Virus genome (UHGV): UHGV-0131811
Length of the DNA: 64,000 nucleotides
Origin: a virus
Reading direction: 5' to 3' (one strand)
The notes beneath the pieces were generated by a model, which saw only the letters and a list, made by a program, of their open reading frames with translations, was not told where the DNA came from and ran no database searches. A program made the position numbers and the translations under genes. Below, in pieces: positions 9,493 through 13,103 of this stretch; within the stretch, counting starts at the first letter, position 1, and the number at the start of each line of letters is the position of its first letter.

Positions 9493-9505
9493 AATCTTCT
9501 CCAGA

Positions 9506-9530
9506 AATTAAAAAGGCTCCCGTAGGAGCC
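9506..9530 (-). terminator. rho-independent terminator hairpin (GGCTCC-CGTA-GGAGCC)
   Basis: Perfect GC stem plus U-run on minus strand, 16 nt downstream of the Nampt-like gene. Confidence 0.55.
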
Positions 9531-9545
9531 TCTTATCATATACTT

Positions 9546-11327
9546 TTAAAGCTGATTGTCAATATTATTTCGAATATCACCAAGAGTTGTGTAACCGTAC
9601 TGCTCAGAGTCGCTAAAGACTAAACGTAAAGCACAAGCTGGATGTTCAAGTGCATCTGCAAAGCTCTGGAATCCATAGCCATCTACAGCTTTCAAATTCT
9701 CACCATCCCACATAGGTGCTACACCACCAAAGGCAGATTTCTTAACACCACTATCTGTTTTAGGGTCTTTTGCAAGCATAATCTCTTTGCCACCAATGCT
9801 TGCAAGAGTTGCTTTGACAGCAAATGCAAAGGTGTCACGAGTCATGTACTGGTAAGTGTAAGAGCCTACACCAAACACCACGTTAGAGCTTGCAAACCCC
9901 ATTTCATACAGACGCTTCAGGATTTCGTTTGCACGTTCCAACGTGATAGAGTCACCATAGATAAGTCCAATGTGCTCATCCAGTACCTTAAAACCTTTAG
10001 AGTTGATAGTTCCTCCAAAGATGTTATACAAGGTCTTAATAGCTCCATCAACCTCTGCTACAGGGCGTGTTACAACGTTTGCAGAACCAACCATATAAGC
10101 GTTCTTCAACATCACTGTATCAGCAACTTCAAAGTCTTCTCTGTCAACAACCATTTCGTAGCCTTCTGACAGTAGCCATCCAGCAATACCATAGTTGATG
10201 TTTTCAAGCTTCATGTTAAGAACAGCATTCAACATTGTGTCACTGACTTCCAGCTTGCTTAGGTGCTCGTAATAAGCCTTCTTAGCACATTCTAAGTGGA
10301 TTGCTTTATAACCTGTGACAATATGTACAGGGTCTCCAGAGTCAGGGCGAATTACCAGTTTGCCATCACGTTCCATAATTTCTTTACGAAGTGCTGGTAA
10401 GATTTCTGACACAGTTCTCCAGAAGTTATAAGTGTCTGAAACAACACTTGCAATACCAGTTGGGTAAGTTTCTGTTAAGAAACGACGGAAGGTTTGTAAC
10501 TCACCTTTAAAGCGTCTTTCTTCTTCAATCAACTCATTACCACCTTCCCAAGCAATGTTTGCACACATTACAGAGTGTTCAGTGGCTGGTACAGAGCTAC
10601 CAATATCAGAGATTGAGTAGGACTGTCCATAGATTCGTTTAGCCGTGTATACAGCAGGGAAGCTATCAGTCCCTTTAAAGCTGGTTAAGTGACCTACAGC
10701 GTTAAATGCGTCATCAGTAAAGCCGGACATACCACGCATAGCAAAATCATGGCACTGATAAGGTAAATGTAAGTCATTGTCACAAGTAAGGTCAGCCCAC
10801 TTCTTACAGATGCGTTTGTAATGCAATGCAATAGTTGCAATGGTGCAAGCCTTCCAAATTTCAGCAGAGAAAGCATCTTCCAGATAACCTGCTACCCAAT
10901 GAAAACCTGAAACAGTGTTCTGAAAGACAATCATCGGGACACGCATTGGAACAACTGTGCCTTCTTCTACAGCGTATACTTCAACTGGTAGATAACCTAA
11001 GTCGTGAAGTGCTTCCCAATGCTCTCGACCGATAGCATCTTTACCCAGAACACCATTCATGACTTCTAAGATTTCATCAATGGCTTCTTTTTTATCACGT
11101 TCAAAGAAAGTGGCATTCCAGTGGTCTATCAAGTAATCTTTAACAAAACGTTGAATACCAAAAGCCACTACACCGTCAATTGCTAAAGGGCTGTTAAACC
11201 ATTTATCACTACGTGGTGTCAGGTTGAACATCAAGTATTCTGTTGCACTAGGATACTGGTAAACATGACCAGATTTGTAAGCATCTGCATTTAAACCTGC
11301 TGGTACTGCATAAAGTGATTTAGTCAT
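9546..11327 (-). CDS. nadV: nicotinamide phosphoribosyltransferase-family enzyme (NadV/Nampt-like; possibly Namat of the NARP1 pathway)
   Basis: 593 aa; family-level resemblance to Nampt over its length (N-terminal NADAYKSGH... region, GTDS-type motif); adjacent to Prs-like gene. Confidence 0.75.
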   Translation of the reverse strand: MTKSLYAVPAGLNADAYKSGHVYQYPSATEYLMFNLTPRSDKWFNSPLAIDGVVAFGIQRFVKDYLIDHWNATFFERDKKEAIDEILEVMNGVLGKDAIGREHWEALHDLGYLPVEVYAVEEGTVVPMRVPMIVFQNTVSGFHWVAGYLEDAFSAEIWKACTIATIALHYKRICKKWADLTCDNDLHLPYQCHDFAMRGMSGFTDDAFNAVGHLTSFKGTDSFPAVYTAKRIYGQSYSISDIGSSVPATEHSVMCANIAWEGGNELIEEERRFKGELQTFRRFLTETYPTGIASVVSDTYNFWRTVSEILPALRKEIMERDGKLVIRPDSGDPVHIVTGYKAIHLECAKKAYYEHLSKLEVSDTMLNAVLNMKLENINYGIAGWLLSEGYEMVVDREDFEVADTVMLKNAYMVGSANVVTRPVAEVDGAIKTLYNIFGGTINSKGFKVLDEHIGLIYGDSITLERANEILKRLYEMGFASSNVVFGVGSYTYQYMTRDTFAFAVKATLASIGGKEIMLAKDPKTDSGVKKSAFGGVAPMWDGENLKAVDGYGFQSFADALEHPACALRLVFSDSEQYGYTTLGDIRNNIDNQL

Positions 11328-11372
11328 CTTTTAATCTCTCTCAAAATGGGGCTTTTAAGCCCCTATAAAGTT

Positions 11373-12269
11373 TCAATCAAGGTTTGCTACAGTAACTTGA
11401 CCATAATGTGTTAAGCCACGGTCTTTAGCTTCCCCTAAAGAGTTTGTAGTGTAGATGTGGTCAATGCCATTGTCAAGAAGGTTTTCAACATCTTTAGAGA
11501 AGATACCATGTGTTACATAGAGTTCCACACGTTTTGCACCTGCTTCACGGAGATGCTTAGCTGCTTCTATGAAGGTTCGACCACCATCACAGATATCATC
11601 CAGAATCATGACGGTTTTATCTGTCAAATCAACATCATCAAGGATTCGCATACCAGTAATTTCACCAGTCTTAAGGTTACGCACCTTAGACATTGTGATA
11701 TATGGTTTATCCACCTCTTTAGCGGTCTCTGCAACCTTCTTAGCAGCACCTGCATCTGGGGCTACTAAGTAATCAACCAGTGGGTCATTTGCATAGTGGA
11801 CTGCAATCTCCTTTTGAGGAATACTCTGGAAGCAGTTAAACAGGTTATCTGGTACATAGCTGTGAGGGTCAACTGCACAGACTGCGCCAAATCCCATTGC
11901 ATTAATCTGTTTAGCAAAAACCTTTAAAGCTGCTGCGTCACCTTTAAACATGTGACGGTCATATCGTGCATTTGGTAAGTAGTAAAAGATGACAGTCTTT
12001 AAAGCATAATCATGAGGAATTAAATCATCAATTGCTTCTTTAGCAAGTGCCACAGCAAACAATGTGTCCTTGTCATAACCTTTTACAATCATAATCACAT
12101 TGTTGATGGATGATGCTGCATAAGCAGTAAAATCAACAAACTCTGGCGAAAAGTGTCCACCAATCTCACCAGAAGGGAATTGGACGATGTTAAACTCTTC
12201 TTCATGAGTCCCTTTAGTTGGTGAATGAACTGTAACACGGATAGATGTTTTCATAGTTTTCTCTCTCAA
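11373..12269 (-). CDS. prs: ribose-phosphate pyrophosphokinase-family enzyme (Prs-like; possibly ADPR-PP synthetase Adps)
   Basis: About 295 aa; PRPP-synthase-like phosphoribosyl-binding region (VMILDDICDGGRTF); true start may be the second Met (MKTSIR). Confidence 0.7.
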   Translation of the reverse strand: MREKTMKTSIRVTVHSPTKGTHEEEFNIVQFPSGEIGGHFSPEFVDFTAYAASSINNVIMIVKGYDKDTLFAVALAKEAIDDLIPHDYALKTVIFYYLPNARYDRHMFKGDAAALKVFAKQINAMGFGAVCAVDPHSYVPDNLFNCFQSIPQKEIAVHYANDPLVDYLVAPDAGAAKKVAETAKEVDKPYITMSKVRNLKTGEITGMRILDDVDLTDKTVMILDDICDGGRTFIEAAKHLREAGAKRVELYVTHGIFSKDVENLLDNGIDHIYTTNSLGEAKDRGLTHYGQVTVANLD

Positions 12270-12544
12270 TCAAAAGTTACGTTTGTTACTGCCATTGCAG
12301 ATTTGCATTTTGCAGGGTCTACAACGTGATAAAGTACACTACAGTTACCTGTGCTGTCTGGTACAGGTTTAACCCATTGTTGCTTGACAGTTGGTTCGCC
12401 TAAGTCTTTGTAAGAACCATCTGTAAAGTTGTTTACCATCTCAAGTGCAATTGGCTCTGGAACATGACCACGTATCATGTACATTTCACAACCATTACCT
12501 CCTTCACTGACTAATGGTAAAATCTCCCACTTTTCTTTAGCCAT
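12266..12544 (-). CDS. hypothetical protein
   Basis: 92 aa ORF overlapping the Prs-like start by 4 nt (translational coupling). Confidence 0.45.
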   Translation of the reverse strand: MAKEKWEILPLVSEGGNGCEMYMIRGHVPEPIALEMVNNFTDGSYKDLGEPTVKQQWVKPVPDSTGNCSVLYHVVDPAKCKSAMAVTNVTFD

Positions 12545-13052
12545 TATAAGTTGCCCTATAAACTGTCTCGAACTTCAACAGGAGAGATATTGCCAAATCT
12601 GTATAGTTGTTGTCAAGCACATCTGGCATATTATTTTTGATATATTTCTCTTGCTCTTCATAGGTCATCTTAGGGATACTTAGGAGGCTATCTCCTTGCT
12701 TCTGGTTATCAGCTTTAGTTTGGATAAACCAGTTTGCACAGTGATGTTCACCACCTTTTGTAACAGGTTTGTGATGACCTAATGTAAATGTTTGCTTACC
12801 CGTATACCTGCAAAGATTGTTCAGTGTTGCAATGGTGTTCTTCACAACACACCATTCATACAGGTTATCTATTGTGTAGTGTGGGTAATAACGGACAAGT
12901 GCTCTTTCACGGAAGTTATCACGATTCCAAAGAACCATGTGATTAGAATTTGAAGGGTCATATTTGTGGGAGTCTATAAACTCTTGACGCTCATCAAAAC
13001 TGAGTCTTAACACTGACATTGCAGCAGAACGTTTCAGGTTTGACAGATACAT
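12537..13052 (-). CDS. HNH endonuclease
   Basis: GHHKPVTKGGEHHCANW is an HNH-type motif. Confidence 0.55.
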   Translation of the reverse strand: MYLSNLKRSAAMSVLRLSFDERQEFIDSHKYDPSNSNHMVLWNRDNFRERALVRYYPHYTIDNLYEWCVVKNTIATLNNLCRYTGKQTFTLGHHKPVTKGGEHHCANWFIQTKADNQKQGDSLLSIPKMTYEEQEKYIKNNMPDVLDNNYTDLAISLLLKFETVYRATYNG

Positions 13053-13103
13053 ATTATCTCCAAAATAAAAAGGGAACCTTTACAGTTCCCTTATAGTATC
13101 TGC

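What the first reader, a model, noticed from the sequence alone, without database searches (positions are those of the whole stretch)
9546..12269. Adjacent Prs-like and Nampt-like genes: candidate phage NAD+ reconstitution module
A PRPP-synthase-family gene (11373..12269) is followed 45 nt later by a 593-aa Nampt-family gene (9546..11327), ending in a terminator. Pairs like this have been described as the NARP1 pathway, where the Prs homolog phosphorylates ADP-ribose to ADPR-PP and the Nampt homolog joins it to nicotinamide to rebuild NAD+ and counter NAD+-depleting defences. The sequence cannot tell me whether this pair is NARP1 or a classical Prs/NadV salvage pair making NMN. The Nampt homolog is about 100 aa longer than typical bacterial NadV, and a 92-aa ORF is translationally coupled upstream.
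Basis: partly seen in the sequence, partly recalled or inferred. Interest (0 to 1): 0.75.

Follow-up and report, generated by a model that had tools for sequence, protein, structure and literature searches.

The report
Known phage NAD+ rebuilding operon (NARP1)
These two genes are the already-described phage NARP1 operon, which rebuilds NAD+ from the fragments left by bacterial NAD+-destroying defences; this copy sits in a Felix-O1-like phage nearly identical to the phage where the pathway was discovered, so it is a correct but ordinary finding.

Summary
The window is a Felixounavirus, 98-99% identical in DNA to E. coli O157 typing phage 1 and wV8. It carries a Prs-family gene followed 45 nt later by a 593-aa Nampt-family gene and a strong terminator.

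The interpretation can now be decided: this is NARP1 (Adps + Namat), not a classical Prs/NadV pair.
- The Nampt-like protein is 98% identical to Bas63_0080. The Prs-like protein is 78% identical to Bas63_0079. Bas63 genes 79-80 are the operon in which NARP1 was discovered.
- The Prs-like protein is 100% identical to the wV8 entry in that paper's Adps table.
- The Namat adenine-clamp signature (GSYTYQYMTRD, plus K42-W43) is present. It is absent from the true Nampt/NadV controls.

Two corrections: the Adps start is ATG 12254 (293 aa), not TTG 12269, so the 92-aa ORF does not overlap it. That ORF is lineage-restricted and not part of the pathway.

The extra ~100 aa is mainly an 88-residue folded subdomain with no known fold match, also present in Bas63.

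Side leads:
- The Adps N-domain occurs as two deeply diverged alleles.
- One relative has naturally lost NARP1.
- Bacterial ADPR-regulated (NrtR) prs-nadV operons carry the same Adps/Namat signatures.

Novelty: already known.

The parts
9546..11327 (-). namat: nicotinamide ADP-ribose transferase (Nampt-family), 593 aa
   Evidence: ORF. 98% identical to Bas63_0080 and 99% to TP1. Top solved-structure match by sequence and by fold is SpbetaL1 Namat 9W5W/9W5X. AF2 model pLDDT 93.6.
11373..12254 (-). adps: ADP-ribose pyrophosphate synthetase (Prs-family), 293 aa from ATG 12254
   Evidence: ORF. Start reassigned. 100% identical to wV8 Adps in Osterman Table S1. 78% identical to Bas63_0079. 36% identical to SpbetaL1 Adps (E 1e-29) versus 29% to E. 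coli Prs (E 9e-16).
11685..11687 (-). Adps catalytic lysine K190 (= SpbetaL1 K162 = B. subtilis Prs K197)
   Evidence: Alignment A1 and residue counting. The K162A mutant is inactive in the source paper.
11745..12254 (-). Adps N-terminal domain (codons 1-170): mosaic segment, 'wV8-type' allele
   Evidence: 66-75% nt identity to Bas63 against 90-99% in the flanks. 66% aa identity versus 93% for the C-terminal part. dS 1.9, dN/dS 0.13. Bimodal among 254 phage records.
11328..11372 (-). 45-nt adps-namat spacer with hairpin GGGGCUUAAAAGCCCC (11348-11363) + AUUUU and GAGAGAG ribosome-binding motif (11336-11342)
   Evidence: Sequence. Fold dG -12.6, z -2.9. Stem invariant in Bas63 and TP1. It did not meet the terminator scan's U-run rule.
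11181..11210 (-). Namat selectivity-clamp loop (SCL), SDKWFNSPLA; K42-W43 is the Bas63-type stacking pair
   Evidence: Alignment to SpbetaL1 R40. Rule from PMC12774641. Translation check.
9834..9866 (-). Namat selectivity-clamp helix signature (SCH), GSYTYQYMTRD (res 488-498), aromatic at positions 3 and 7
   Evidence: Controls: Xcc Nampt GGALLQKVDRD and H. ducreyi NadV GAQTYQRNTRD.
10047..10310 (-). 88-residue insertion subdomain of Namat (res 340-427), alpha/beta, absent from SpbetaL1 Namat and from Nampt
9511..9534 (-). intrinsic terminator closing the operon
12266..12544 (-). 92-aa ORF upstream (context; not a NARP1 component)
   Evidence: PHROG 4726, unknown function, no Pfam/NCBIfam hit. 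Found only in Felixounavirus/Mooglevirus-like genomes. An unrelated 98-aa gene occupies the slot in phiEa21-4. Two-thirds of it is lost in the natural deletion L012.
12537..13052 (-). 171-aa HNH-like gene (context; first gene after the upstream terminator)
   Evidence: PHROG 3500, plus a weak HNH hit. Homologues in Justusliebigvirus are not next to NARP1.
13070..13092 (-). upstream terminator; with 9511-9534 it brackets a four-gene unit (171 aa, 92 aa, adps, namat)

Best explanation
The two genes are the NARP1 counter-defence operon of a Felixounavirus. When a host NAD+-depleting defence (SIR2, TIR or SEFIR type) cleaves NAD+ into ADP-ribose and nicotinamide, Adps (11373..12254) uses ATP to pyrophosphorylate ADP-ribose, giving ADPR-PP. 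Namat (9546..11327) then exchanges the pyrophosphate for nicotinamide and regenerates NAD+ directly, without an NMN intermediate or an adenylyltransferase.

Shown elsewhere: in vivo for the Bas63 orthologue, by deletion phenotype, NAD+ levels and ADPR-PP detection; in vitro for the SpbetaL1, Paenibacillus and DyoEdafos enzymes.

Shown here: orthology, intact catalytic residues, and the Namat adenine clamp.

Inferred: that this phage's own proteins, including the divergent Adps N-domain allele, have the same activities.
For: - Window is a Felixounavirus. Bas63 belongs to the same genus and has the same gene order.
- Namat is 98% identical to Bas63_0080. None of the 14 substitutions falls at a catalytic or clamp position.
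- Adps is 78% identical to Bas63_0079 and 100% identical to wV8 Adps. wV8 Adps is listed in Osterman Table S1 with Namat association 'Yes'. wV8 and TP1 Namat are listed as 'Adps-associated' in Table S2.
- Bas63 79-80 is the operon whose deletion sensitises the phage to SIR2-HerA and abolishes ADPR-PP.
- The Namat signature and the catalytic core are all present: D15, Y17, K42/W43, F195, R198, D221, H251, R327, D329, G458-D459, GSYTYQYMTRD.
- True Nampt/NadV structures lack the aromatic clamp.
- The best structural match is Namat 9W5X (TM 0.95 on target).
- Adps scores 123.6 bits on the broad Prs subfamily model, against 422.7 for E. coli Prs and 106 for the biochemically proven SpbetaL1 Adps. 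It falls far below every Prs equivalog cut-off.
- Catalytic Lys is conserved.
- Both genes are under purifying selection, with dN/dS 0.05-0.13.
Against: - No enzyme from any Felixounavirus has been assayed in vitro in the papers read. The biochemistry comes from homologues that are 32-47% identical.
- The window's Adps N-terminal domain is only 66% identical to that of the tested Bas63 protein.
- Namat retains some PRPP-to-NMN activity in vitro, so an NMN side reaction is not excluded.
- I built no phylogeny. Clade membership rests on identity to catalogued members.
Confidence: 0.93

Rival explanations
1. Classical salvage pair: the Prs homologue makes PRPP from ribose-5-phosphate, and the Nampt homologue makes NMN, which host NadR/NadD converts to NAD+ (an incomplete NARP2-like boost).
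For: Pfam and NCBIfam name the proteins Prs and (nicotinate/nicotinamide) phosphoribosyltransferase, and NF006629 is passed above its cut-off. Namat enzymes keep about half of human Nampt's PRPP-to-NMN activity in vitro.
Against: - For the 98%/78% identical Bas63 operon, the authors report that the domain-predicted reactions are not the real ones. ADPR-PP appears only with the operon plus a defence system. The rescue was also tested in a pncC nadR host.
- The Namat adenine clamp is present here and absent in Nampt/NadV.
- The Prs-like protein is far from every Prs equivalog model.
- No Nmnat HxGH or Nudix signature was found in a six-frame scan of the 64 kb (a crude test).
Confidence: 0.04
2. 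Extended module: the terminator-bounded four-gene unit (171-aa HNH-like, 92-aa, adps, namat) works together, with the small upstream proteins feeding or regulating NARP1 as the Macro-domain phosphatase Adpp or RyDEP do in other phages.
For: - Terminators at 13070-13092 and 9511-9534 bracket exactly these four genes.
- The same order (171-aa homologue, small ORF, prs-like, nadV) is kept in the distant Ounavirinae phage phiEa21-4.
- Accessory genes inside NARP1 operons are a documented theme.
Against: - Neither protein has a Macro, RyR or any other Pfam/NCBIfam domain.
- The small ORF in phiEa21-4 is unrelated to the 92-aa protein.
- The 92-aa family is confined to one phage lineage.
- 171-aa homologues occur in Justusliebigvirus away from any NARP1.
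- The Bas63 deletion that abolished the phenotype removed only genes 79-80.
Confidence: 0.05

Closest known systems
NARP1 of Escherichia phage JohannRWettstein (Bas63), genes 79-80 (Osterman et al. 2024, bioRxiv 10.1101/2024.02.11.579819)
   Same: Same genus, same gene order and neighbours, same 45-nt spacer with the same hairpin, and the same 593-aa Namat with the same insertion and clamp residues (98% identity). Adps has the same length with a near-identical C-terminal domain.
   Different: The Adps N-terminal 170 residues are a different, deeply diverged allele (66% aa identity, dS ~1.9). The window lacks the 114-aa gene bas63_0081 downstream of the terminator.
NARP1 of Bacillus phage SPbetaL1 (biochemistry; Namat crystal structures 9W5W/9W5X, PMC12774641)
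   Same: Same two-gene order, the same catalytic residues, and the same SCH signature. It is the best sequence and fold match in the PDB.
   Different: - Namat is only 47% identical and Adps 32-36% identical.
- SpbetaL1 Namat lacks the 88-residue subdomain and the 15-residue insert at 258-276.
- Its SCL uses Arg40 directly, whereas the window uses Lys42-Trp43.
- The SpbetaL1 genes abut, sharing one base and leaving no spacer.
Canonical Nampt/NadV (human NAMPT, Xanthomonas Nampt 7YQO, H. ducreyi NadV 9KE8) and the NARP2 pathway of Vibrio phage KVP40
   Same: Same fold and the same nicotinamide/ribose-phosphate catalytic core, including the catalytic His.
   Different: No adenine-stacking aromatics in the SCH-equivalent. 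Their substrate is PRPP and their product is NMN. NARP2 needs an Nmnat partner, which was not seen in the window.
NrtR-regulated prs-nadV operons of bacteria (Rodionov et al. 2008, PMC2330246)
   Same: Same two-gene pair. In the bacterial loci examined, the NadV carries the Namat SCH signature and the Prs paralogue resembles Adps more than it resembles housekeeping Prs.
   Different: These operons are chromosomal, in housekeeping context, and sit next to an ADPR-responsive repressor. Their products are 495-590 aa, mostly without the Ounavirinae subdomain. Their ADPR-to-NAD+ activity is untested, except for one Paenibacillus pair.

Membership tests
NARP1 (Adps + Namat) | Adjacent, co-oriented Prs-family and Nampt-family genes in a phage genome | tested here: met
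   The spacer is 45 nt, both genes are on the same strand, and the genome is a Felixounavirus.
NARP1 (Adps + Namat) | [quoted passage not shown] | tested here: met
   GSYTYQYMTRD at residues 488-498. Negative controls: Xcc Nampt GGALLQKVDRD and HdNadV GAQTYQRNTRD.
NARP1 (Adps + Namat) | Namat SCL supplies a stacking residue: third residue Arg, or Lys/Tyr followed by the stacking residue | tested here: met
   S40-D41-K42-W43, identical to Bas63, which the paper cites as the Lys-type case.
NARP1 (Adps + Namat) | Intact Nampt-like catalytic core (SpbetaL1 D13', Y15', F189, R192, D215, catalytic His, R306, D308) | tested here: met
   D15, Y17, F195, R198, D221, H251, R327 and D329 are all conserved.
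NARP1 (Adps + Namat) | Prs-like partner belongs to the Adps group rather than to housekeeping Prs | tested here: met
   100% identical to wV8 Adps in Table S1 and 78% to Bas63_0079. Closer to SpbetaL1 Adps (E 1e-29) than to E. coli Prs (E 9e-16). Scores 123.6 bits on TIGR01251 against 422.7 for true Prs. No tree was built here.
NARP1 (Adps + Namat) | Adps catalytic lysine (SpbetaL1 K162 / B. subtilis Prs K197) | tested here: met
   K190 in SKVR.
NARP1 (Adps + Namat) | Enzymology: ADPR + ATP gives ADPR-PP, and ADPR-PP + nicotinamide gives NAD+ | not testable with these tools
   Shown in vitro for SpbetaL1, P. foliorum and DyoEdafos enzymes. For Bas63, ADPR-PP was detected in infected cells.
NARP1 (Adps + Namat) | Rescues phage from NAD+-depleting defence systems | not testable with these tools
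   Shown for Bas63 delta-79-80 on SIR2-HerA. Not shown for this phage.
Classical Prs/NadV salvage or NARP2 | Nampt-type SCH-equivalent without adenine-stacking aromatics; PRPP-specific pocket | tested here: not met
   The window has the aromatic Namat clamp.
Classical Prs/NadV salvage or NARP2 | Partner Nmnat (NadM/NatV, HxGH nucleotidyltransferase, often with Nudix) encoded by the phage | tested here: not met
   No G.F.P.H.GH or Nudix-box match in the six-frame translation of the 64-kb window. No such domain in the four flanking genes. This was a crude motif test, and about 24 kb of the genome lies outside the window.
Classical Prs/NadV salvage or NARP2 | Prs partner reaches equivalog-level Prs model scores | tested here: not met
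   The best equivalog score is 105.5 bits against a cut-off of 296.
NARP1-AP / RyDEP-extended NARP1 | Macro-domain ADPR-1P phosphatase (Adpp) or RyR-domain glycosidase within or beside the operon | tested here: not met
   No Pfam hit of any kind for the 92-aa, 171-aa and 111-aa neighbours, and only weak, sub-threshold DnaJ zinc-finger/DUF5351 matches for the 58-aa one.

The most novel reading that the evidence does not exclude
The NrtR-controlled prs-nadV operons, known since 2008, have an ADPR-released repressor and a dedicated second Prs paralogue that were never explained. They may themselves be cellular Adps-Namat pairs that recycle ADP-ribose into NAD+, with ADPR acting as both inducer and substrate. 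On that view the phage operon in this window is a captured or shared version of an old housekeeping route, not a phage invention.

Among 78 bacterial species loci with a readable motif, 71 have the Namat aromatic clamp, 73 have an Adps-like neighbour, 57 have an NrtR-like gene within 4 kb, and 51 have all three.

A weaker, window-specific reading also survives: the orphan 88-residue Namat subdomain and the two deeply diverged Adps N-domain alleles could be adaptations to unknown host counter-measures.
Probability: 0.45. Interest if true: 0.55.

Novelty: already known. Interest (0 to 1): 0.18.

Why it matters
For the window itself, this is a correct re-identification of a published system. The value is in annotation: GenBank records for these phages and NCBIfam still call the pair ribose-phosphate pyrophosphokinase and nicotinate/nicotinamide phosphoribosyltransferase. 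A reader or pipeline would therefore miss that nearly every Felixounavirus carries a counter-defence against NAD+-depleting immunity.

The side observations are modest but usable:
- The tested Bas63 Adps represents only the minority of two deeply diverged N-domain alleles.
- The family-specific Namat subdomain has no known fold.
- A natural NARP1-minus relative exists.
- The bacterial NrtR/prs-nadV operons carry the NARP1 signatures. This gives a directly testable answer to a question left open in 2008, and it qualifies the claim that the pathway is phage-specific.

Tried and rejected
- **Insertion searched alone.** Searching the 96-residue insertion against the 5.8-billion protein index returned only one 54-aa fragment, which was uninformative. 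The full-length search was needed instead.
- **92-aa ORF as a NARP1 accessory.** Rejected. It has no domain, is confined to one lineage, is replaced by an unrelated gene in phiEa21-4, and is truncated in a natural deletion.
- **92-aa and 111-aa flanking proteins as paralogues.** The fusion protein P0134 suggested this, but BLASTP is not significant (E 1.4). Only a 14-15 nt imperfect repeat at the deletion junction is shared.
- **Intercistronic hairpin as a terminator.** It folds well, but it fails the U-run criterion and three near-identical sequences give no covariation. Left as an observation.
- **bas63_0081 and the phiEa21-4 small ORF.** Neither has an informative family.
- **Finding Bas63.** The first accession guess was wrong. 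It was located by stepping through the alphabetically ordered BASEL accessions.
- **Not done.** No Adps/Prs phylogeny was built, because only one canonical Prs sequence was at hand. The representative-library search was not used.
Full report

Yes. The minus strand carries a 593-aa ORF at 9546..11327 and a Prs-like ORF ending at 11373.
- Pfam assigns NAPRTase + NAMPT_N to the first and Pribosyltran + Pribosyl_synth to the second.
- PHROGs gives 'nicotinamide phosphoribosyl transferase' (1e-202) and 'ribose-phosphate pyrophosphokinase' (8e-97).
- The 45-nt spacer and the terminator after the second gene are as described. The terminator is at 9534..9511, with a 10-bp stem plus U-run, dG -16.6 kcal/mol, and no shuffle folding as well.

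Two details need correction.
- The TTG at 12269 is only the first possible start after the preceding stop. ATG 12254 is preceded by GAGAGAG, the same motif that precedes the downstream gene's ATG. It gives a 293-aa product of the same length as the annotated genes in Bas63 and TP1, and identical to the published wV8 protein.
- With that start, the 92-aa ORF (12266..12544) stops 11 nt upstream rather than overlapping. Translational coupling is therefore not demonstrated.

**2. Where the window comes from**

The 4.1 kb around the pair is 98-99% identical to E. coli O157 typing phage 1, wV8 and many other Felixounavirus genomes. In all, 259 phage records match. The neighbours are typical: rIIA downstream, NrdG/NrdD upstream. 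Adps is found in 254 phage records, and the adjacent 171-aa gene in about 247 Felixounavirus-like records. The operon is therefore close to universal in this group.

**3. What it is**

NARP1 was discovered in Escherichia phage JohannRWettstein (Bas63), genes 79-80. In that work:
- Deleting the genes sensitised the phage to SIR2-HerA.
- NAD+ was restored only with the operon present.
- ADPR-pyrophosphate appeared only when both the operon and the defence system were present.

Bas63 is a Felixounavirus with the same gene order as the window.
- The window's Nampt-like protein is 98% identical to Bas63_0080 (579/593, no gaps) and 99% identical to the TP1 protein.
- The Prs-like protein is 78% identical to Bas63_0079.
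- It is 100% identical to the wV8 protein listed in that paper's Supplementary Table 1 with 'Namat within 10 genes: Yes'.
- wV8 and TP1 Namat appear in Supplementary Table 2 as 'Adps-associated'.

The gene pair has therefore already been catalogued as NARP1.

**4. Independent test: Namat versus Nampt**

The 2026 structural paper on SpbetaL1 Namat (PMC12774641) defines what separates Namat from Nampt. It is an adenine 'selectivity clamp' made of two elements:
- a loop that contributes a stacking residue.

The window protein has GSYTYQYMTRD (residues 488-498) and the Bas63-type loop K42-W43. It also has every catalytic-core residue: D15, Y17, F195, R198, D221, H251, R327, D329, G458-D459. None of its 14 differences from Bas63 touches these positions.

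The controls behave as expected. Xanthomonas Nampt has GGALLQKVDRD and H. ducreyi NadV has GAQTYQRNTRD at the same place.

The best PDB match, by sequence (E 6e-128) and by fold (AF2 model pLDDT 93.6, TM 0.95 on target), is Namat 9W5W/9W5X. NadV comes next, then mammalian NAMPT.

**5. Independent test: Adps versus Prs**

- The window protein keeps the Prs catalytic lysine. K190 is equivalent to SpbetaL1 K162, whose mutation inactivates NARP1.
- It is far from housekeeping Prs. It scores 123.6 bits on the broad TIGR01251 subfamily model, against 422.7 for E. coli Prs and 106 for the biochemically proven SpbetaL1 Adps.
- It misses every Prs equivalog cut-off by a wide margin.
- It is closer to SpbetaL1 Adps (36%, E 1e-29) than to E. 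coli Prs (29%, E 9e-16).

**6. Mechanism, with status of each step**

- *Step 1:* Adps transfers pyrophosphate from ATP to ADP-ribose, giving ADPR-PP.

Both steps are shown in vitro for the SpbetaL1, P. foliorum and DyoEdafos enzymes, and in vivo for Bas63. For this window they are inferred from orthology and conserved residues.

The pathway has substrate only after a defence system has cleaved NAD+. It is expected to fail against aRES, which leaves ADPR-1''-phosphate. The window has no Macro-domain phosphatase or RyR-domain gene beside the operon.

A crude six-frame motif scan found no Nmnat or Nudix signature in the 64 kb. This argues against a NARP2-type route.

**7. The extra ~100 residues**

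Relative to SpbetaL1 Namat, the window protein has:
- 4 extra residues in the clamp loop;
- a 15-residue insert at 258-276;
- an insertion spanning residues ~340-427.

It is identical in length in Bas63 and is kept at 47% overall identity in Erwinia phage phiEa21-4. Across the wider family, the same site holds inserts of 14 to 97 residues. It is therefore a lineage-specific decoration of a known enzyme. Its function is unknown, and the papers I read do not mention it.

**8. The upstream ORFs**

Terminators at 13070-13092 and 9511-9534 bracket four genes: a 171-aa HNH-like gene, the 92-aa ORF, adps and namat.

The 92-aa protein:
- has no domain;
- occurs only in Felixounavirus/Mooglevirus-like genomes;
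- is replaced by an unrelated 98-aa gene at the same position in phiEa21-4.

Homologues of the 171-aa protein occur in Justusliebigvirus away from any NARP1. I therefore do not count either gene as part of the pathway.

**9. Things seen on the way**

*(a) Mosaic Adps N-domain.*
- The first 170 codons of adps are 66-75% identical in DNA to Bas63, while the flanks are 90-99% identical.
- Among 254 phage records, 156 are at least 90% identical to the window's segment and 98 fall at 60-80%. None lies in between.
- dS is about 1.9 with dN/dS 0.13. This indicates an old divergence moved by recombination, not relaxed or positive selection.
- The tested Bas63 protein carries the minority allele.

*(b) A natural NARP1 deletion.*
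- A 51-kb metagenomic Felixounavirus-like contig (L012) has lost NARP1 cleanly.
- An 80-aa ORF fuses the 5' part of the 92-aa gene to the 3' part of the 111-aa gene.
- The break maps to window ~12441 and ~9307, at a 14-15 nt imperfect repeat.

*(c) A missing small gene.* The window and wV8 lack a 114-aa gene that Bas63 and TP1 carry after the terminator.

*(d) A conserved hairpin.* The adps-namat spacer holds a stable hairpin that is conserved in Bas63 and TP1.

**10.

The closest cellular relatives of the window's Namat are chromosomal genes of Klebsiella, Cronobacter and Erwinia (46-49% identity). Each follows a 285-291-aa Prs paralogue and sits divergent from an NrtR-type Nudix/winged-helix regulator, in housekeeping context.
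- These Namat-like proteins carry the SCH signature.
- The Klebsiella Prs paralogue resembles phage Adps (E 1e-50) more than E. coli Prs (E 7e-25). All three paralogues score like Adps on TIGR01251, at 133-153 bits.

This is the 'nrtR / prs-nadV' arrangement described in 2008. In that study ADP-ribose releases the repressor, and the authors called the dedicated second Prs 'quite unexpected ... yet to be elucidated'.

I scanned species-representative bacterial genomes and kept the 80 best loci. They include Acinetobacter, Shewanella, Pseudoalteromonas, Achromobacter, Bacteroidota and others. Results:

| Feature, among 78 loci with a readable motif | Count |
|---|---|
| Aromatic residue at SCH position 3 | 78 |
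| Prs-like ORF in the flank | 73 |
| ...of which closer to the Adps queries than to E. coli Prs | 73 |
| NrtR-like ORF within 4 kb | 57 |
| All three features | 51 |

Caveats:
- The sample is the 80 loci most similar to the query, so it is biased toward Namat-like sequences.
- Osterman et al. already remark that some bacteria may use NARP1 for housekeeping and that ADPR regulates transcription in some bacteria.
- The NAR paper showed one bacterial pair to be active.
- None of the NARP1 papers in the library names NrtR.

**11. Verdict**

The NARP1 interpretation is supported, and the system is already known, down to an identical protein in the founding paper's table. Interest for the window itself is low. 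The side leads are recorded for whoever wants them.

Noticed in passing
window 11745-12254 (-): The N-terminal domain of Adps is a recombinant segment. It is 66-75% identical in DNA to Bas63, against 90-99% in the flanks. Across 254 phage records it falls into two classes (156 at >=90%, 98 at 60-80%, none between). dS ~1.9 and dN/dS 0.13. The experimentally tested Bas63 carries the minority allele.
   Followed up: partly
L012:5401-6600 (ENA ERZ28615805 scaffold_152) versus window ~9307 and ~12441: A Felixounavirus-like metagenomic contig has lost the whole NARP1 operon. An 80-aa ORF (P0134) fuses the 5' part of the 92-aa gene to the 3' part of the 111-aa gene, at an imperfect 14-15 nt repeat (CCAATTGCACTTGA / CCAATTTGCGCTTGA). 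It was seen in two sequence sets.
   Followed up: yes
L014, L016, L017 and L018-L097 (bacterial chromosomes): The closest cellular relatives are nrtR / prs-like / nadV-like loci. The NadV-like proteins carry the Namat aromatic clamp, and the Prs paralogues look like Adps. An ADPR-responsive NrtR-type regulator lies within 4 kb in 57 of 78 species loci, and 51 loci have all three features. This matches the unexplained prs-nadV regulon of Rodionov 2008 and suggests a cellular ADPR-to-NAD+ recycling route.
   Followed up: partly
window 10047-10310 (-): The 88-residue insertion in Namat folds as a confident alpha/beta subdomain (pLDDT 91 alone) with no significant structural neighbour in the PDB or BFVD. 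The same site holds inserts of 14-97 residues in other family members.
   Followed up: partly
window 11348-11363 (-): Stable hairpin GGGGCUUAAAAGCCCC followed by AUUUU, lying between adps and namat (dG -12.6, z -2.9). The stem is invariant in Bas63 and TP1. It could be a weak attenuator or an RNA-stability element. There is no covariation to test it.
   Followed up: partly
window 9493-9545, compared with L007:6009-6353 and L002:6499-6843: The window (like wV8) lacks a 114-aa gene of unknown function (bas63_0081 / ECTP1_00093, PHROG 20372, no Pfam). Bas63 and TP1 carry it between the Namat terminator and the 111-aa gene.
   Followed up: partly
window 9535-9562 (-): Near-consensus sigma-70-like site (TTGACA-16-TATGAT, 11 of 12). 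It overlaps the namat stop codon and lies immediately 5' of the operon terminator. It may be the promoter for the downstream 111-aa gene, with the hairpin in its leader.
   Followed up: no
window 12537-13052 (-): The 171-aa protein has an HNH-like motif (GHHKPVTKGGEHHCANWFIQTKADNQKQG; PHROG HNH hit 2.3e-6). It overlaps the 92-aa ORF start by 8 nt. Homologues exist in phiEa21-4 (next to NARP1) and in Justusliebigvirus (not next to it).
   Followed up: partly
window 9546-12254: Curated family models still name these proteins 'nicotinate phosphoribosyltransferase' (NF006629, 468.8 bits, above cut-off) and 'ribose-phosphate diphosphokinase' (TIGR01251, just above cut-off). Automatic annotation therefore hides the NARP1 function.
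   Followed up: yes
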